This document shows, one piece after another, positions 42,182 to 51,100 of a stretch of 64,000 bases of DNA. Within the stretch, counting starts at the first letter, position 1, and each line of letters begins with the position of its first letter. Source of the DNA: Patellaria atrata CBS 101060 (lineage: Eukaryota); contig MU006096.1 of the NCBI GenBank assembly GCA_010093705.1, positions 952,004 to 1,016,003 of the forward strand, read 5' to 3'. The notes below the pieces were generated by a model. That model saw only the letters and a list, made by a program, of their open reading frames with translations, was not told the DNA's origin and made no database searches. Made by a program: the position numbers and the translations under genes.

Positions 42182-43167
42182 CTATTGCCTCTGAAACGTG
42201 ACCCTGATAGCTTGTCCACTCAACACCATTCCCGCACACCCCTCCTTCGCACTAATCGCTCCACTCTCCGCCTCGTACTCGACGAACGCCAACCCTTTCC
42301 GTCCCGGCACCTGCCTGACCTCTCTGAATCCTTCGAAGCGCGCGAATATGGCGGACAGAGCCTCGACATCGTAATCCTCGGGTACGTTTTGTACGAAGAG
42401 GATCTTGTTCGGCGGGAGGTATTCGTCTGGGACGACGGGCGCCGAGGGCGCAGTTGCCTTGAGCCCAGCGCCGCGGGTTGTCTTCGCAGGACGAGCGAGG
42501 GAGGGATCGGTAGGAGGGGGGCGTTTCAGACTCGCGGCTTGCTGTTGCGCTTCCAACGCTTGTTTCCGTTCTGCGGAGTTGAGAGTATATTAGCTCGCTG
42601 TCATGTATCGTATATCGGACACGATGAGGGGATGGACGAAGAGACAACCAAGGTTCCTCCACCACCATAACAGAAAAGCATCATGTAGAGAAAGTGATAG
42701 AAATCGCAAACTCACCCTTCTCCGCCAACCTAGCCCTCTTGTGTTTCTCGAAGGCTTCGTCGTCCCCTTCTCTTAAGACCGTCGCGTCGCTTTTCGTGCG
42801 CGCGTACTCGACCTTCATCGCCTTGTCGAAGAGCTCGAACCCCTGTGTTTCCTCCATCGCGCGTGCCGCTTCCTCCCGTGTCTCGTACACGATGAACGCC
42901 TGGCCCTTCCGCTTCAGGCTCTTCTTGGCCACGATATCGATGACGGTGCCGAAGGCGCCGAAGAGCGCGGATAAAGCTTCGGTTAGGGGTTCGAGCTTTA
43001 TTTTCTCTTCGAGGTTGTGGACCTAGGGGTGTTAGACTGCGGGGATGTGGTTTAGACATGGGAGAGAGCTACATAGAGACTACAAAAAATTGTTAGAAAG
43101 CTAGGTTGAGAGGGACAGTTGGGGGACGGAAAACGAACGTATTGTTGGGTATAGCCGCTGCCGCCAT
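42182..43167 (-). CDS. U1A/U2B''-family snRNP protein with two RRMs, most U1A-like (4 exons including a 7-nt micro-exon)
   Basis: MAAAAIPNNT-LY-VHNLEEKIK...VIDIVAKKSLKRKGQAFIVY...YARTKSD; C-terminal RRM YLPPNKILFVQNVP...GLAFVEY. Confidence 0.88.
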
Positions 43168-43653
43168 CTTAGCCTTTTCAAAACCGTCTTCTGATAGTTG
43201 ATGGTCTACTATGCCCGATAATTGTTCTCGCGAGTATATTTTTCGAGGCCGTGGGGATTCAAGCGGTGGTTGTGATATGGCGACTACGGCGGGCTCGGTG
43301 CTCATGTCGGTAGAAATCGGTTCGTCGCTCCGCACTAGCTCCCCTCCCGAACGCCAAGGCCGATCGCTCTCCTCTACAAGCGGCGCGTTGACACATGATT
43401 CCGCGACGGTTCCCCAGAAACTCATAGGAAACAGTGTACTTTGTAATATGACACTAGGATAAAGTGGTTGTGAATTGAGTTTCTTGCTCTAATGAAATGT
43501 CTTGAAGAGCTTAAGGTACCTGGAAGTAACATCATATTGAAATTATATTCTGGCAAGTCCTTTCAGCATATTGCACCTTCTACACACTGGAGCATGCCTC
43601 GTAACTTGAGGTAAGGATGAGGGGATATCATATAAGGTAATATACTATAATAT

Positions 43654-45707
43654 CTACAATAGGTATACAAATGGCTTCTGTCTTCTAACAGTGTCCCTCC
43701 CATCCATCAATGGCTCATCTACCTCCGTCATCTCAATTTCCCCATTCTCAAACCTATTTACATTCGCTTCATTCTCCCACCTCAGTTTCAGTCGCAGCAT
43801 CACTGCTAAGAATGCGACGAATAGCATAAATGCTGAACAAATCGCCATCCCCTTAATATAATATGGCTTATCCTCCTTCGGATAGAGTCGGGTCCCGAGC
43901 AATGGACCGCACTGACCAATTACATTCATCATGGCGATACCTGTCCCTTTTTTCGAGTCGGAATCCTGGTTATTCAATGTCCAAGTGATAATGATGGTGA
44001 TTGCGGAAAAGAATCCCGCAGCGGCAGGGTAGACGGCTAGATAACGCCAGATATTGCTCCATGCGAATTTGCCGGCGAGCGCCATTGTAGCATAGCCAGA
44101 TGCAGCAAGTAACACGTGGATGATGATGAAGAAGCTCCGGTTTTGCATACGGTCTGATGCGTAAGCGGTAAACAGAACCACCAGGAAGGAGAATAGGTAA
44201 GGAGGGGCGGACAGAGCTTGGGAGGTTACTGCTGTGTATCCCATACTATATACTACAGTTAGACAAATTCTCTGCAGAAAGTCTTTGGAACATACTCCTT
44301 GATGATAGTCGGAAGGAAAACGGGTAGAGAACTAAATGCCACATTACAAGAAAAGAACATCATCTATGGCTAATGTTAGTCCTATCTCCATACGTAAATA
44401 ATGTAACATACCGCAGTTACATAACATTTCGGATCCGCAAGCGTCTGCAGTATCTCGCTGAAGTCGAGTCTTCGGTTCTTGTTACCTCTATCCCCTTTCT
44501 CATCGATTACGGGCTGCTCTTTTTTATCCTGTACGGTCTCATTACGCAGCCTCAACGCTGCGACTTTCCTTTCTCTCTTACTCAGAAACTTTGCAGTGCC
44601 CGGACTGTCCGGAATAAAAGACCAGGCAAACACCGCGACCAGGACGCTCGGGAATCCTTCCACGAGGAATAACAAACGCCATGGGGCGATTGGCCCGCCC
44701 TCCCCAAGTTTTACAATCGCGTACGCAAGCCCACTGGCAAAAGATGTAGCCAAAGGAGCTGCTGAGATGAATAGTCCTGTACGGAGGGCGAGTTCATTTC
44801 GGCGGAAGAAGAAAGAGAGATAAAACGGCACACCTGGCCCGAATGCAGCCTCACCAATTCCTAAGAAAGCTCTTAAAATAAGTAGTGATCCAAACGACGT
44901 ACATACGGATTGAAGAGATGCGAGGATTCCCCAAGATAGTATGCAAAGTGAAATATAAATATGTGGAGGGATTATACGGTATCTTGTACAATCAGTACGG
45001 GATAATATGTGTAACCGGGGGATATACGAGTACATACAATAGAGTCATCCATTCAAATAAAATGTACGTGATATAGAAAGCTGTGAGTAGCCACTCATAT
45101 TGGCCTCCATGCAGACCGAGATCCCGCTCGAGTCCCGCAATCCGTGCGTTCCCAATATCTATCAGTACATTAGTTAGCTACAAATTTAAGCAACTCATAA
45201 CATCTCCCTCCGTATACACAGTGGCCTGCTCCCAATTTATCTTCCTACCATAATTTCAAATCCCGGCACAATTGCTCGGGAGTGCGTCCAAATGCTCTCA
45301 TAGAGCACCGATATGCACTTACGCCATACAGCCGTGTCTCACTTCCCATAATCCCTACGAAGCGCAAACACTTCCAACAAAACGCAAAAGCAATACCTAC
45401 TCGACCGGTCCAGAAAGCTCAACAAATACAATCCCGCCAAAAACGCCACTAGCTTCCTGTCTAACTTCTTCCTCACCACTCTCTCCTCGTCCGGGGTATA
45501 TAGTTCGAAACTCTGCGTGCTCGCTCTTCTCTTCCCGTTCCGGACGAACTGCTCCTCTTCATCTGTACCATCGTCGACGTCGGAGTCATTGGCTACGCTG
45601 GGAGAGGAGGAGGATGGTGTTAAGCGGGCGAAGGTGGGCGAGTCGGAAGGGGTGGAGTGGGAGGGACTGGAAAGGGTGGACGGTGGAGGGCGAAAGAGAG
45701 ACGCCAT
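43654..45707 (-). CDS. MFS permease, anion:cation symporter/Dal5-Tna1 family (multi-exon)
   Basis: VRKKLDRKLV..LYLLSFLDRS-NIGNARIAG, RAFLGIGEAAFGPG, APWRLLFLVEG, PDSPGTAKFL, AQALSAPPY-like motif. Confidence 0.9.
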
Positions 45708-46415
45708 TAGGGTGGTGATGTGCTACGATTCAGTGATGCATTGTGATGAGCTGAGTTATCGAGCAAAACGGTGGTTGTATAGAGGTGGAGAGGTGAGCAA
45801 AGCTATGGGGTTTAATGAGGAAGTGCTGGGATGTGGCGCTTGACATGGGAGGGCTTGTATCAACGTCAGCCGAGTTTCCTGCAAGGTACTGTACTTGTAC
45901 AATCAAGTACTCCTATATGATTTTATGTTCATCTAAAGACATCAAGAAAATATAAGCAAGACGGGTGTGTAGAAGGTAATTCAATGTTTTGAACTTCTAA
46001 TGAGTGACCATGTAGTTCTATATGGAGACAGCTGCATAGAAACATCAGTTCGATATCCACTTAGAATAGCGACGGTATGGCGTACAACGAGTGTTTAGGT
46101 CACAAGGTTCAGGCATATCGAGCTCCAGAGGGATAACTTGAACATGAGAATAGAGTATTCGAAATCCCAATCAGCGCGTACAGGTTCACTTCGTAGAGCG
46201 CATGCCAAACTCTCCCGTTCAAAACAAAGCGATATACTACCAACTCTGTAACCAGACTCTGGGATTTAAGGTAAGAGTTCAGACATATCCGCAATTCATA
46301 TGAAAAATTAAAGCGTAACAGATCTGTCCGAAGTTGATTTAGCGGTGGACAAAAGACTACTTCTGCCAGACTCCTCTCCGCAATAAAGGGGTTTAAAAAG
46401 TGAAAAAAAGAATTG

Positions 46416-46576
46416 AAAAAAATGGCAAAAAGAACACTCTCCTTCGAGAGTTAAGTGAACCACTTTGTGATTTAAACTTGAGCGATATTCCAATATTAAG
46501 CCATGTGCAGGGCTCGAACCGAGGGGGTTTGGGGGGATACGTACCTGAAAGAGCCCTAACTGCACCATGGCGGAAT
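46416..46576 (-). ncRNA. Candidate RNA polymerase III transcript (~150-160 nt) with a tRNA-like internal promoter; identity unknown
   Basis: TATAAA at 46605-46600; A box TGGTGCAGTTAGG at 46567-46555; B box GGTTCGAGCCC at 46520-46510; T5 at 46431-46427 and T7 at 46422-46416; several hairpins. Confidence 0.6.
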
Positions 46577-46901
46577 GAAAAGTACGGCATTTGAAATAGT
46601 TTATAACGTCAGTCCCTCAATCTCGGATTAGGAGGAGGAAAGTTACGTGGAAACCAAAGACGGGAGACCCATCCGTTTGCACAGCACGCAGTCTTCTGTA
46701 TAAAATTATGCCCCTCATTCATGAGCGTTCTACAACAAATCATACAGTGGCTTAGGTGGTGCAAGACAAAAGTAATTGTAAGTCTCATCGAGGGCTCCCA
46801 TACTAGATTTCATATTAATCCAGTGTCATAATGATGAGCAAGAGAGTACGAGAATTTGATTGCATATATACCTATTTGGCTATCTGGAGTATTATACACT
46901 C

Positions 46902-49313
46902 TCAGATCTCAGCAATTTCCTTTTTCCTTCCTTTTCTATCTACTCTCTCATCCTCCGGATTAAAACCGCCATTACCCCAAAGCGCCCATTCAGGGGTTGG
47001 TGGTCCCATATAGTCCTCCGGCATAAAGCTCTTCCCTGACTCTAAACACTCAAAGAACTTGTCATAATCGATGAGAGTACACCATTTACCATCTCTTCTG
47101 AATCGTGTACTGGCTAGTAAAACACAACAACTATGTGCATGCTCAGCCGCAATACCATATTCCAGTCCCCGCTTAGCAAGAGCATCATTGAGAGCAGTGA
47201 CGAATTCCGTTACTTCAGCGTAGAAGGGTACATTCTGCATAGTTAAACCGGCCGAGGAAGAAGTTGATGTCCCGCAGTAGGTGACACCTTTGATTTCGAC
47301 AAAACATGGTAGGCTGCGAGCAACGAGATCAGCGTAACCTTCAACCTCATCCTCGACATTGAAGCCCTTGACCAGTGTCAGACGGAATACAGTCCGTTGT
47401 TGGAATCTTTTCTCCCTGAGAATCTCTAGACATCTTTGGAATCTCTCCCAGAAATCGCGATGAAGAGGCCTGTCAATCTTACGGAGACTCTCGCGGTTCG
47501 AGGCGTCGATTGAAACGTAAAGCTGTGTTACGGGTTTCAAAGCGGCAAGCTGATCGGGATGCTGCGCGTTACAAACCAGGAAGCTGGAGATGTGTTCTTT
47601 ATGTAGCATGGTTGTAAACTCATTAATGTGAGGATAGAATATGGGCTCGCCAACGAGAGATAGCGCACAATGTCGTATCCTCATCGCTTCAGCAAATCTC
47701 TCCGCACGAACTCCAGGAACACCTTTCATCATCTTGATCTTCTTGTAATGTCCTTCTTTGACTCCTTTGAAAATCTCTTCCGGAGGGTCCACGACCCAGC
47801 GCCATGTTGTTCCTACCGGATTGGTACCGTGACGCCAACAGAATACACACTTATTGCTACAGGACAGCGATGGAGTAGTTTCCATACATAGATGCGACTT
47901 AATTCCGTAGAATGAGAATTTGTAGCATGAACCACGGCCCCGAAGAGCAGATTTAGTCCAGCGACAGATTTTGACGCCTGAATGAGAGCCTACGATTGTG
48001 TAACCCTGCTTGGTGAGAGCAGCATAAGTAGGGGAGGATTTCGGAACCATCTCTTTTATTTGAACGGAATTTGGTCTTATCGAATGATTTGAAGACTTGT
48101 AGGCGGTAAAGTCAATGGGTACTAGAGATGATGATGGAGATTCCTTCTGGATCATAAGTCCCAGATCTTCTACATCGTCCACCCGTTTACCTCTAGCAGC
48201 TTCTCGAGTCCTGGATGCTCCCTCTACCGCTTCATCTCCATCTTCTTCTTCTTCTTCTACCGCATCCTCCTCATCACTTTCTACAGGATCTCCACTTCCA
48301 ACAACACCATCACCGAGCCCACGTCCGGACAAGATCTCTAAAAATACCTCCTGCACCCCGAAACGCCACTCCTGTAGCCTCTCAGTTGCATCACTCTTAA
48401 CATCCCCCATCCCCAATGGGAAAGCTCTCTTCTTTCCTGTTAATCTTGCTAGCCATTTATCGACTTCCTTTGCTTGCGAGCAGAAACCCTCTTCTTCGGT
48501 TGGCCAGCCCTCTAGATCCCCAAGTCCAAACACTGAATATCCAAGCAGAGCTTCCAGAGGTGCGGTATCTATCCTGAAGTCATTGTGGGTCTCCTGTAGA
48601 TGCTCTAGAAAAGTGTTCATTATGGTGTCAATGTTATAGGAGGGTATGATCATAAGGTAGAAATATTTTATATCCAATTCACCTTTTGGAGGTGAGATGA
48701 AATAGTCGTCTAACTCGATTTCAGAAAGGTCGTGAAGCTTCGCCTCTAATAGGTTGAATGTTTCCGCATCCGAAGAATTTCTCCACGAATTCAGGGCCTT
48801 AACGAATTCTGATGCAGTAGTCTTCGTCGTCCCAAGTAAAGACGAGTAGAAAACCAACGGCTGTACCTTGTCCTTTCCATTATCAAATGACGCTGCTCTG
48901 GTAGCTGCCTTTCGCACGCTCTTGTTGCCAGTAATTCTCTTCGGTATGCCTTTCCCTAAGACCTTTGTTGGAGCTATGATGGTGACATTCTCGACATGGT
49001 CGTCATCTAAGCCTCGCAACTTCGCTCCAACGTCCGTTTTCGGTGATGACCAGTCTAAGGTGTTCTTATCGATAGTATTTGGAGATCCGGGGAGTGAAGA
49101 GGCGGACGGTCCTTTATGGCGTTGGCGCAGTGTTAATTCAGATTTTATGAGCGTAAGGATTATGAAGATACCCAAAATAAGGGGCAATCGGTATGCGTGC
49201 CATATTTCTAAAGGATCTACACATTGAACAAGACATCAGTAACAAGCTCACTAGTAGATCATTTAGCAGCGAATCTTACTCATATGAAGCTCAGAAGAAG
49301 CCATGTTCTCCAT
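46902..49313 (-). CDS. TYW1: tRNA wybutosine-synthesising protein Tyw1 (flavodoxin plus radical SAM; 2 exons)
   Basis: N-terminal membrane anchor, flavodoxin-like domain, IVGSHSGVKICRWTKSALRGRGSCYK, CSNKCVFCWRH (CxxxCxxC), HCALSLVGEP. Confidence 0.95.
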
Positions 49314-49806
49314 TTTGTCTTCTTAGAGGTGACTATACGGACGGGAAGCGAAGGGATATCTGAGAAAAATGCACAATACAAATTTTCATAACTCTGTTCT
49401 GCGCACTACTAGAATCATTCCGCGCAGAGCTATGCTAACTGCATGTGAGACGTGAGCTTTTTCGTATATGAAGAGATTGACTTCAGCGTATCTGAAGGGA
49501 TCGCGTTGGAAATAAGGGTTGATAGGGGGTAGGGCGGGGGAGGGGTTGAAATTTAGTTGAGTTCTCCGCATACCCCTGTCAGCCTTACGACAGGGGTGCG
49601 GCTTCCCCAGATGTTCTCGTCTCTTGCCAGCTTTAGACAAAAACAACACACCCGACCAACCTCTACTTCCTCCTAATTATGACACAGCTATAACATGACC
49701 ATCTCTTCGACTGCTACACTTCTTCTTCATATCACTCATTGTAGCTCTTGTCTCTATATGCTCCATACTTAGTTCATCTTGTAGTTCTACCGTCACTTAA
49801 CACAGC

Positions 49807-51100
49807 ATGCATAACAGCTTTGACAGCTTCTTGTCCGATGGACGTTGTACTGAGCTTGCCCACCCAGACAAGTTTAACTTTGGTCTATCACTGTATGAGA
49901 CGTATACTTCTCATCCCAAATCTATTACTTATACCGTATGATTGCAGCTTCATTCTCGTTGGCATCTTAGTGTCCTACCTTCCGCAACACCTGCGGATCA
50001 TATTCCGGAGGTCATCCGAAGGCCTCTCACCACTATTCGTGCTACTTGGAACTGTATCAGGAACATGCGCTATATTCAACATCGTCTCTCTGCCCACTAG
50101 TCAGGCTGATGTAGCTTGCTGCAAGGAGATAAGCGGTCTGGCATGCACGGCTAGCATCCTGGGGATCGCTCAAGTTGGCGTGCAATGGTTTTGTTTCTTC
50201 ATCATGTAAGATTCTCTGCAACTCCTGAAATACTCTCTAACACTTTCATATAGTATGTTACTCTTCATCATCTTCATTCCCCGCCCCATCCCCAGCCGTG
50301 CGAATCCGCGCGCAAGTTGGGAAAATACACCTTCGCCCACTTGGAGAGAGGCCGTTACGGTCGTCGCTATTTGTATGGCTACTTTTGTTGCCGTCTTCAT
50401 CATCACCGGCGTCTTTTTCCTTCGTTACCCACAAAACCTGCAAGTCTGGGCCAACCTTCTCGGCGCTAGTGCCGGCGTTATGGCCTGTATCCAATACCTC
50501 CCACAGATCTGGACAACTTGGCGATTACAGCATGTTATGAGTCTCAGTGTGCCCATGATGTGCATCCAAACTCCTGGTAGCTTCGTCTTCGCAGCAAGTC
50601 TAGGTTTGCGGCTTGGCTGGGATGGGTGGAGCGCATGGGGTGTGTATATCGTAACCGGCATCTTACAAGGCTTCCTCCTTGTTATGGGCATCATATTTCT
50701 CATCCGGGATCGCAAGGCAGACAAAAAGGTCGCCCAACCCCTAGGCAACGGCTTAGGAAGCCATCTTCGAATGCCTGAAGAGTCCGACGATGAAGGCGGC
50801 TTGACCGGAACGAATGACTCCTCCCCATCCGAGACCTCCCCGTTGCTCGATCGCACCTCAAACCCGCGCCCCGCCAGACGCGTAGGGAACGAGCGCAGTC
50901 TTAGTGAACGTCTCGCGACGCGCGATGTCTACGGCGGTCCAGACTCCTCGGGCAGCACTAAGCAGACCACTCCTTCGCCGTCCAAATTCAAGCAGCTAGG
51001 GAGAACCATAAGTGCAGACTCGGGAGCAGGAGCGGTAGGAGTAGTACCGGAGGCTAGGAGAAAGTCCAAATTATCCCTTACGCAGAATACTGACGCCTGA
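49807..51100 (+). CDS. PQ-loop repeat membrane protein (3 exons)
   Basis: Two PQ motifs: VSYLPQHLRIIFRRSSEGLS and IQYLPQIWTTWRLQHVMSLS. Acidic dileucine-like ETSPLL in the tail. Confidence 0.88.

What the first reader, a model, noticed from the sequence alone, without database searches (positions are those of the whole stretch)
46416..46610. Unidentified Pol III small RNA gene: tRNA-sized, tRNA-promoter module that folds as a long hairpin instead of a cloverleaf
Seen on the minus strand in the MFS-TYW1 intergenic region: TATAAA (46605), a plausible start A ~29 nt later (46576), A box TGGTGCAGTTAGG at about +10, B box GGTTCGAGCCC at about +57, and terminators T5, T7 and further T runs. The segment 46571-46500 is exactly 72 nt, begins GCCAT, ends ATGGC, and places GTTCGA at tRNA positions 53-58. 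The T-stem (CTCGG/CCTGC) and anticodon arm do not pair. Instead both promoter boxes lie in one extended stem, GCCAT-G-GTGCA-GTTA-GGGCTC...GAGCCC-TGCAC-ATGGC. The 3' trailer has more hairpins (AAGTG-gtt-CACTT; ACTCTC-gaag-GAGAGT). The loop contains CAG|GTACGT, a spliceosomal donor-like site, recalling B-box-containing introns of fission-yeast U6. Established: TATA plus internal A/B boxes is the fungal SCR1/U6/tRNA-type promoter; yeast RPR1 and SNR52 use cleaved A/B-box leaders; Neurospora milRNA precursors are Pol III hairpins. Inference: this is a functional ncRNA (milRNA precursor, leader plus small RNA, or new class), and it lacks the signatures of the standard snRNAs.
Basis: partly seen in the sequence, partly recalled or inferred. 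Interest (0 to 1): 0.8.

Follow-up and report, generated by a model that had tools for sequence, protein, structure and literature searches.

The report
Degenerate tRNA-like Pol III promoter cassette
A short stretch between two fungal genes carries the promoter signals of a tRNA gene but cannot fold as a tRNA; it is most likely the remnant of a dead tRNA gene that may still attract the tRNA-transcribing machinery, and nothing yet shows that it makes a useful RNA.

Summary
These are TATAAA, an A-box-like TGGTGCAGTTAGG, a consensus B box GGTTCGAGCCC, a 72-nt segment with pairing ends, and a T5/T7/T7/T5 cluster.

It is not a tRNA or any Rfam family. The box combination is hard to get by chance: it is the only A+B pair in 64 kb, with tRNA-like spacing and a TATA box 38 nt upstream. 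The hairpin itself is not remarkable. About 2.2% of all 72-nt windows, and 9.8% of GC-matched ones, fold at least as well.

There is no second copy in the window, and DNA contigs run unbroken through the locus. That argues against a young SINE. A coding or intron reading has no support.

Expression and conservation could not be tested. No RNA run is listed, no genome is held, and the nearest TYW1 relative is only 70% identical.

Best reading (about 0.4): a tRNA-gene relic or type-2 Pol III promoter remnant, comparable to yeast ZOD1, possibly still bound by TFIIIC. A functional hairpin RNA remains possible (about 0.18). Interest is low to moderate.

The parts
46600..46605 (-). TATAAA. Its first T is 38 nt upstream of the first T of the A box. 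Candidate TFIIIB/TBP site.
   Evidence: Read. TATAAA occurs 40 times on the two strands of the window.
46571..46576 (-). Predicted Pol III start zone (A 46576 to G 46571), 4-9 nt upstream of the A box. Inferred, not shown.
   Evidence: Inferred from geometry. In the yeast tH(GUG) gene printed in PMC11724288, +1 lies 7 nt upstream of the A box by my count.
46555..46567 (-). A-box-like TGGTGCAGTTAGG. It fits TRGYNNAR(N2-4)GG. It starts at position 5, not 8, of the 72-nt segment.
   Evidence: It matches 3 of the 4 fixed positions of TNGNNNANNNG (motif from PMC11724288); the final G is displaced by 1-2 nt.
46510..46520 (-). B box GGTTCGAGCCC, a full match to GGTTCGANNCC. It is the only such match in the window.
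   Evidence: The identical 11-mer is listed as a tRNA B box for several yeasts in a table of PMC12498455.
46500..46571 (-). 72-nt GC-rich segment (61% GC) that folds as a long hairpin. Stems: GCCATG/CATGGC, GTGCA/TGCAC, GGGCTC/GAGCCC.
   Evidence: -25.1 kcal/mol, z -1.95. (not an outlier). (local GC peak of 0.54-0.56 in a 42% GC intergenic region).
46539..46544 (-). GTACGT, a 5' splice-site-like hexamer in the hairpin loop.
   Evidence: GTACGT occurs 22 times on the two strands of the window.
46436..46465 (-). Two small trailer hairpins, of 5 bp and 6 bp.
46395..46431 (-). Oligo-T cluster T5, T7, T7, T5: candidate Pol III terminators. There is no run of T4 or longer between 46576 and 46432.
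   Evidence: Read. Predicted primary transcript is about 146-161 nt (inference).

Best explanation
This is a degenerate tRNA-gene-type (type-2) Pol III promoter cassette. Most likely it is the remnant of a former tRNA gene whose cloverleaf has been lost while the TATA, A-box and B-box signals remain.

Inferred mechanism:
- The tau-B module of TFIIIC binds the consensus B box (46520-46510).
- The tau-A module sits on the A box 34 nt upstream.
- TFIIIB is placed on the TATAAA.
- If Pol III is recruited, it starts near 46576-46571. It reads through the 72-nt hairpin and a 69-nt trailer and stops in the T5/T7 runs (46431-46416).
- The product would be a low-level RNA of about 146-161 nt with no tRNA function.

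Any selected role is more likely at the DNA level than as a new RNA class. A TFIIIC/Pol III complex would sit between the 3' end of TYW1 and the promoter of the downstream MFS gene, both on the minus strand. There it could act as a roadblock or boundary against read-through.

Shown: the motifs, their spacing, their uniqueness in the window, and the failure of every tRNA and Rfam test.

Inferred: the tRNA origin, factor binding, transcription, and any boundary role.
For: - The B box is a full consensus match and the only one in 64 kb.
- This is the only A+B pair in the window.
- There are 34 nt between the boxes. That is inside the 31-93 bp range quoted for yeast tRNA genes (PMC11724288 passages) and the 30-40 nt called typical (PMC12498455 passages).
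- A TATAAA lies 38 nt upstream of the A box. By my count of the sequence printed in PMC11724288, the figure is 33 nt in the engineered yeast tRNA-His construct.
- My arithmetic: 0.46 B boxes x (63 offsets x 3.1e-4) x (16 offsets x 3.1e-4) gives about 4.5e-5 chance composites per window. The motifs were defined after the fact, so the true figure could be 10-50 times higher.
- The B box sits at tRNA positions 52-62 of a segment whose ends pair 6 of 7. The segment is a local GC peak.
- The cloverleaf and covariance-model tests all fail, as expected for a relic rather than a live tRNA.
- Precedents from the literature. [quoted passage not shown] The B box is the main TFIIIC affinity determinant (PMC11724288). 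tDNAs and TFIIIC sites block intergenic Pol II read-through (PMC4228148 abstract).
Against: - No residual tRNA similarity is detectable. Rfam lists no tRNA hit even at E<=10 on 181 nt. So the tRNA origin rests on promoter geometry and paired ends only.
- The A box is 3 nt out of register with the paired ends.
- Promoter motifs are intact while the stems are largely gone. Uniform neutral decay would not predict that, although the locus was picked because its boxes are intact.
- There is no oligo-T right after the 3' end, as a tRNA gene would have.
- No relative shows an intact tRNA gene at this site, and no ChIP or RNA data exist.
- Pure chance is not excluded, because the B box alone is expected 0.46 times per window.
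Confidence: 0.4

Rival explanations
1. This is a genuine, selected Pol III-transcribed small RNA gene. It would be tRNA-derived and remodelled into a long hairpin that embeds both promoter boxes. It might act as such, as vault or VA-type RNAs do, or as a Dicer substrate or milRNA precursor.
For: - The type-2 promoter layout is complete, with correct spacing and an upstream TATA.
- No run of T4 or longer lies before the T5/T7 cluster.
- The 151-nt predicted transcript folds with z = -2.28, and 5 of 200 shuffles fold as well.
- Promoter motifs are intact while the tRNA stems are not.
- Neurospora's major milRNAs are Pol III products followed by T clusters, and milR-4 is linked to a tRNA (PMC3547838 passages).
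Against: - The hairpin stability is ordinary for this window: 2.2% of all 72-nt windows and 9.8% of GC-matched windows fold as well.
- The stem is interrupted, and the loop of about 35 nt is a C-rich, low-complexity stretch.
- The terminator lies 69 nt beyond the hairpin, whereas the Neurospora T clusters lie immediately downstream of the milRNA.
- The trailer hairpins are only 5-6 bp.
- There is no Rfam match.
- No conservation or expression evidence could be obtained.
Confidence: 0.18
2. This is a chance cluster of short motifs in an intergenic region, with no Pol III history.
For: - A strict B box is expected 0.46 times per window, and 35 of 100 shuffles have at least one.
- The A box needs a flexible D-loop spacing to fit, and such loose A boxes occur 40 times in the window.
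- T5 runs and TATAAA are common: 142 and 40 matches.
- The hairpin is not an outlier.
- The motif definitions were chosen after seeing the locus.
- The same two-box pattern found one unrelated GC-rich contig in the metagenome collection.
Against:
- It is the only A+B pair in the window.
Confidence: 0.2
3. This is part of a Pol II gene. The ATG at 46568 (context GCCATGG) would open an 8-codon first exon that ends at the GTACGT donor.
- It could be spliced over 103 nt (46544-46442) in frame into a 110-codon ORF (46441-46112).
- Or it could be spliced over 822 nt to TAG|CAC at 45723/45722, in frame with the MFS ORF.
For: - Both junctions are in frame, with YAG acceptors and branch-like TTAAC or ATAAC motifs (read by eye).
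- GTACGT is a plausible donor. Real MFS introns here use GTAGGT or GTATGT and are about 50-242 nt long (by eye).
- Full-length MFS homologues have N-terminal tails about 36-46 residues longer than the ATG-45705 model. In P0166, query residues 37-103 align with residues 73-142. In P0176, residues 29-103 align with 75-148.
Against: - The 110-aa ORF has no homologue (2 word-sharing candidates, none scored) and no Pfam family.
- Its codon-usage log-odds is -0.21 bits per codon. Seven TYW1 pieces give 0.11-0.48 and two MFS pieces give -0.02 and 0.27.
- Its best Atlas score is 0.79, in the noise range.
- The unspliced 86-aa ORF also finds nothing.
- TATA to ATG is only 37 nt, which leaves almost no 5' UTR.
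- A CT-rich block typical of fungal start regions lies just upstream of the ATG at 45705 (by eye).
- An 822-nt intron would be far longer than the others seen here.
Confidence: 0.1
4. This is the head of a tRNA-derived SINE or another small mobile element.
For: tRNA-related SINE heads keep A and B boxes while losing the cloverleaf. Such families exist in Ascomycetes, for example AfuSINE2 (PMC5063351, abstract seen in the listing).
Against: - There is no other copy in the 64-kb window; the best non-self blastn hit has E = 0.76.
- Logan DNA contigs run unbroken through the locus. X1 record 1 covers 43500-48549 and X2 record 11 covers 45717-49400, at the same word depth as the flanks. That argues against young near-identical copies.
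- The flanking 11-nt near-repeat (46493-46503 / 46812-46822) is of a kind expected about 6 times by chance in 1.25 kb (my arithmetic).
- There is no A-rich or LINE-like tail.
Confidence: 0.04

Closest known systems
Eukaryotic tRNA gene (type-2 Pol III promoter; Rfam RF00005)
   Same: - An A-box-like and a consensus B box, with 34 nt between them.
- The B box lies at positions 52-62 of a 72-nt segment with paired ends.
- An upstream TATA and downstream oligo-T.
   Different: - No cloverleaf: the anticodon stem has 0 of 5 pairs, and the D and T stems are mostly unpaired.
- No ARAGORN call and no covariance-model hit even at E<=10.
- The A box is 3 nt out of register.
- The first terminator is 69 nt downstream rather than adjacent.
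Yeast tRNA-relic locus ZOD1 and extra-TFIIIC (ETC) sites
   Same: - Non-tRNA intergenic loci that keep tRNA-type promoter boxes and recruit all or part of the Pol III machinery.
- ZOD1 is called a tRNA relic, is bound by Pol III and is weakly transcribed (PMC5911963).
- ETC sites act through a B box and TFIIIC and affect neighbouring Pol II transcription (PMC3395662; PMC4228148).
   Different: - ETC sites carry a B box with a conserved 10-base 3' extension, lack Pol III, and tend to lie in divergent intergenic regions.
- This locus has an A box and a TATA box and lies between tandem genes.
- Factor occupancy and conservation are untested here.
- There is no sequence relationship to the yeast loci.
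Neurospora Pol III-transcribed milRNA loci (milR-1 to milR-4)
   Same: Intergenic hairpin-forming loci with TATA-like elements, putative A and B boxes in some, and a T cluster downstream. milR-4 is made from a tRNA-containing precursor (PMC3547838).
   Different: - In Neurospora the T cluster follows the milRNA immediately. milR-1 has no A or B box. milR-4 uses intact tRNAs and RNase Z.
- Here the tRNA-like part is not a foldable tRNA.
- The stem is short and interrupted.
- No small RNAs are known from this locus.
Hairpin RNAs driven by internal type-2 promoters (adenovirus VA RNAs, BLV pre-miRNAs; vault RNAs, the last recalled only)
   Same: Pol III units whose A box, and sometimes B box, lies inside a stem-loop RNA rather than a cloverleaf (PMC12498455 passages).
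   Different: - These are animal or viral families with no fungal members known to me.
- In BLV the B box lies beyond the terminator.
- The Rfam scans gave no match to any family, vault RNA included.
tRNA-related SINEs of Ascomycetes (e.g. AfuSINE2)
   Same: A tRNA-derived head with A and B boxes and a degenerate cloverleaf.
   Different: There is no second copy in the window and no break in the contigs. There are no convincing target-site duplications and no 3' tail.

Membership tests
tRNA gene | A cloverleaf with four stems, detected by tRNA finders | tested here: not met
   - ARAGORN finds 0 genes in the window.
- It still finds none at the default threshold with introns allowed.
- Only a 114-nt-intron artefact appears at the 80% threshold. 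That setting 'genes' in the 64-kb window, so it is noise.
- By eye, the anticodon stem has 0 of 5 pairs.
tRNA gene | Covariance-model similarity (RF00005) | tested here: not met
   There is no tRNA hit at the gathering threshold. There is none at E<=10 on 801 nt or on 181 nt.
tRNA gene | Oligo-T terminator within a few nucleotides of the 3' end | tested here: not met
   The first run of T5 or longer starts 69 nt after position 72.
Type-2 Pol III transcription unit | Internal A box and B box at permissive spacing | tested here: met
   The A-box-like motif lies at 46567-46555 and the consensus B box at 46520-46510, with 34 nt between them. The quoted range is 31-93 bp.
Type-2 Pol III transcription unit | TFIIIC/TFIIIB/Pol III occupancy and a 5'-triphosphate transcript ending in oligo-U | not testable with these tools
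   No RNA holder is listed. The two runs laid are DNA contigs.
ETC (extra TFIIIC) site | B box with a conserved 10-base 3' extension, and TFIIIC without Pol III | not testable with these tools
   The extension consensus is defined for Saccharomyces sensu stricto only. No ChIP data and no close relatives are available.
ETC (extra TFIIIC) site | Tendency to lie in divergent intergenic regions | tested here: not met
   TYW1 and the MFS gene are both on the minus strand, so the arrangement is tandem.
tRNA-derived SINE | Multiple dispersed copies with target-site duplications and a 3' tail | tested here: inconclusive
   There is no second copy in the 64-kb window and the DNA contigs are unbroken. 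The whole genome was not available.
Fungal milRNA precursor | A hairpin that yields discrete Argonaute-bound small RNAs | not testable with these tools
   No small-RNA data are available. The hairpin is present but statistically ordinary.
Known Pol III or small RNAs in Rfam (U6, 7SL, RNase P/MRP, snoRNAs, vault, Afu_* families) | A covariance-model match | tested here: not met
   There are 0 matches at gathering scores in the whole window. Only chance-level hits with E>=0.71 lie near the locus.

The most novel reading that the evidence does not exclude
A filamentous ascomycete has turned a tRNA gene into a new Pol III gene. The cloverleaf was remodelled into a long hairpin that contains both promoter boxes. 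It gives a roughly 150-nt RNA that works as a structured RNA or small-RNA precursor. This would be a fungal counterpart of VA, vault or BLV-type Pol III hairpin RNAs.
Probability: 0.15. Interest if true: 0.6.

Novelty: new member of a known kind. Interest (0 to 1): 0.3.

Why it matters
- If the cassette still binds TFIIIC or Pol III, it would be an example outside the yeasts of a tRNA relic kept as a Pol III landing site between tandem Pol II genes. That bears on how TFIIIC sites insulate neighbouring genes.
- If it makes a stable hairpin RNA, it would show a route from a tRNA gene to a new Pol III RNA in fungi.
- If it is neither, it is an ordinary decayed pseudogene or a chance motif cluster, and serves only as a caution for motif-based calls.

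Tried and rejected
- Whole-genome copy count: no genome is held for this window.
- Expression: no RNA holder is listed. The two runs found (one sample, one study) are DNA contigs and show no joints over 43500-49400, so they say nothing about transcripts.
It returned a single GC-rich contig (L001) with no blastn similarity to the window, which is a chance match.
- Conservation, relatives: the closest TYW1 other than the window's own (P0002, 100% identical) is 70% identical. Close relatives are therefore lacking anyway.
- Earlier findings of this scan: nothing by place, sequence or words.
- Relaxed ARAGORN: rejected as noise, with 112 calls at the 80% threshold and 20 at the 90% threshold in 64 kb.
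- Coding reading: rejected as unsupported.
- MFS N-terminus: a search of protein representatives with MFS exon 1 did not return the organism's own gene model. Whether the annotated MFS protein uses the upstream ATG stays open.
- C/D or H/ACA snoRNA in the trailer: there is no C, D or ACA box arrangement by eye.
- tRNA-His origin: the yeast tH(GUG) gene printed in PMC11724288 shares GCCAT...ATGGC ends and AAACCC before the T arm with the candidate. This was compared by eye only and not run in any tool. Acceptor stems differ between distant fungi, so it is kept as a lead, not evidence.

Full report
**Observation**

- TATAAA at 46605-46600.
- An A-box-like TGGTGCAGTTAGG at 46567-46555.
- A B box GGTTCGAGCCC at 46520-46510.
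- A 72-nt, 61% GC segment at 46571-46500 whose ends (GCCATG / CATGGC) pair.
- A GTACGT hexamer in the loop.
- Two small trailer hairpins.
- Four oligo-T runs: T5 46431-46427, T7 46422-46416, T7 46409-46403 and T5 46399-46395.

No run of T4 or longer lies between 46576 and 46432.

The neighbours are as stated. TYW1 is the minus-strand ORF 46902-49235, with Flavodoxin_1, Radical_SAM and Wyosine_form domains. The MFS transporter has minus-strand exons at 43654-45722 and matches MFS_1. The two genes are in tandem. The locus starts about 300 nt past the TYW1 stop and lies about 800 nt upstream of the MFS ATG at 45705.

**Known families**

- ARAGORN finds no tRNA in the whole window.
- With introns allowed it still finds none at the default threshold.
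- At an 80% threshold it builds a 'tRNA-Gly' with a 114-nt intron that borrows the T arm. That setting 'genes' in the 64 kb, and the 90% setting, so the result is noise.
- Rfam gives 0 matches at gathering scores in the window.
- In E-value mode it gives only chance-level hits: four with E 0.71-5.8 on 801 nt and one plus-strand miRNA model at E 6.1 on 181 nt. No tRNA, U6, 7SL, RNase P/MRP, snoRNA or vault hit appears.
The D stem has 1 Watson-Crick pair plus 1 GU, of 4. The anticodon stem has 0 of 5. The T stem has 2 Watson-Crick pairs plus 1 GU, of 5.
- The A box begins at position 5 of the 72-mer, not 8. The TGG is shared between the 'acceptor' and the A box. One parsimonious but untested idea is a TGG-TGG slippage deletion in an ancestral gene.

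**Chance**

- The strict B box alone is unremarkable: 1 found against 0.46 expected, and 35 of 100 shuffles have at least one.
- The loose B box GTTCRANNC occurs 17 times against 17.5 expected.
- A loose A box (TRGYNNAR, then 2-4 nt, then GG) occurs 40 times on the two strands, as does TATAAA.
- The candidate is nevertheless the only place in the window where a loose A box precedes even a loose B box by 25-80 nt.
- The 34 nt between the boxes fall in the 31-93 bp range quoted for yeast tRNA genes (PMC11724288 passages). They also fall in the 30-40 nt called typical (PMC12498455 passages).
- The TATAAA begins 38 nt upstream of the A box. By my count it is 33 nt in the engineered yeast tRNA-His construct printed in PMC11724288.
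- Multiplying the densities gives about 4.5e-5 such composites per window. The calculation is 0.46 x 63 offsets x 3.1e-4 x 16 offsets x 3.1e-4.
- The motif definitions were fitted after the fact, so I allow a 10-50-fold inflation. Even then the composite is rarer than plausible rates of tRNA-derived loci. I therefore put pure chance at about 0.2.

**Structure**

- The 151-nt predicted transcript extends the basal stem and gives z = -2.28, with 5 of 200 shuffles folding as well.
- I also folded 42,620 72-nt windows of the same 64 kb, on both strands at step 3. Of these, 918 (2.2%) fold at least as well. So do 9.8% of the 4,026 windows within 3% GC of the candidate. The GC-corrected residual is -1.6 sd.
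- The hairpin is real but not evidence of selection.

**Mobile element**

- blastn of the 1,179-nt intergenic region against the window finds only itself. The best other hit has E = 0.76.
- The short direct and inverted repeats nearby are of chance size.
- DNA contigs of two runs, from one sample, cross the locus without a break, at the same word depth as the flanks.
- A young multi-copy SINE is therefore unlikely. Old diverged copies cannot be excluded without the genome.

**Pol II rival**

The ATG at 46568 sits in a GCCATGG context. It opens 8 codons that end exactly at the GTACGT donor. Two acceptors would continue in frame:
- GAAG| at 46442, into a 110-codon ORF (P0001).
- TAG| at 45723, into the MFS ORF.

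The evidence does not support either junction:
- P0001 has no homologue, no Pfam family and only noise-level Atlas neighbours, with a best score of 0.79.
- Its codon-usage score is -0.21 bits per codon. The seven TYW1 pieces score 0.11-0.48, and its own other frames score no worse.
- The unspliced 86-aa ORF also finds nothing.
- The TATA-to-ATG distance leaves almost no 5' UTR.
- The real MFS introns read are about 50-242 nt long and have better branch sites.
- The representative search with MFS exon 1 did not return the organism's own model. It showed only that homologues have somewhat longer N-terminal tails.

I keep this rival at about 0.1.

**What could not be done**

- No RNA run is listed.
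- No genome is held.
- The single metagenome scan returned one unrelated contig.
- The window's TYW1 is 100% identical to P0002, a named Dothideomycete protein. The next relatives are 70% identical or less. Alignable intergenic DNA from relatives is therefore unlikely to exist in any case.
- Expression and conservation, the two decisive tests, remain open.

**Mechanism and comparison**

- In yeast the B box is the high-affinity TFIIIC determinant. [quoted passage not shown]
- A consensus B box with a fitting A box and TATA is therefore likely to be bound if the chromatin is open. Pol III would then make an RNA of about 146-161 nt that ends in the T5/T7 runs.
- The closest known things are tRNA relics such as yeast ZOD1, which is bound by Pol III and weakly transcribed (PMC5911963 passage), and ETC sites (PMC3395662 passages).
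- Pol III complexes and TFIIIC sites stop read-through of upstream Pol II transcripts (PMC4228148 abstract). That would suit a site between the TYW1 3' end and the MFS promoter.
- Membership of ETC is not claimed. The extended B box cannot be judged, and the genes are tandem rather than divergent.
- The locus works like a Pol III hairpin RNA gene (VA RNAs, BLV pre-miRNAs, Neurospora milRs) only on paper.
- I searched the paper library four times and saw no description of a fungal Pol III hairpin RNA with both boxes inside the stem. That is a limited search, not proof that none has been published.

**Verdict**

My estimates are:

| Reading | Probability |
|---|---|
| tRNA-type Pol III promoter remnant, possibly still factor-bound | about 0.4 |
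| Chance | about 0.2 |
| Functional hairpin RNA | about 0.18 |
| Pol II exon and intron | about 0.1 |
| SINE | about 0.04 |

Interest is 0.3.

Noticed in passing
window 45503-46519: Loose B-box-like motifs (GTTCRANNC) cluster here.
- Three lie in the 1,179-nt TYW1-MFS intergenic region: 46519-46511 (-), 46217-46225 (+) and 45994-45986 (-).
- A fourth lies at 45503-45511 (+), inside MFS exon 1.
- Markov-1 simulations give three or more in 0.36% of 5,000 trials. About 1.3% of real sliding windows reach three.
- Two of the motifs are the same 10-mer, GTTCAAAACA, in inverted orientation (I4).
- This was noticed after the fact. It recalls the multi-B-box boundary elements of fission yeast but may reflect base composition.
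   Followed up: partly
window 46568-46545, 46442, 45723: The ATG-plus-8-codon 'exon' that ends at GTACGT can be joined in frame to two different downstream ORFs: a 110-codon orphan ORF and the MFS ORF. No coding support was found for either. The annotated N-terminus of the MFS protein could not be retrieved.
   Followed up: partly
window 46503-46490 and 46461-46450: Just downstream of the hairpin lie a second loose A-box-like motif (TGGCTTAATATTGG) and a near-B box (GGTTCACTTAAC, with the A58 and C61 positions wrong). They are 42 nt apart, and the T5 run follows about 20 nt later. This could be a second, more decayed tRNA-like unit, or it could be chance in AT-rich DNA.
   Followed up: no
window 42185-43022 (-): Two RRM_1 domains lie in adjacent minus-strand ORFs (E 3.9e-12 and 5.3e-10). 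This is probably a two-RRM RNA-binding protein gene downstream of the MFS gene.
   Followed up: partly
window 50210-51097 (+): An ORF with a PQ-loop repeat (E 1.4e-9) lies upstream of TYW1 on the opposite strand.
   Followed up: partly
window 46902-49235 (-): The 777-codon TYW1 open frame has no ATG near its 5' end, so a short upstream exon must supply the start. The matching database protein P0002 is 782 aa long.
   Followed up: no
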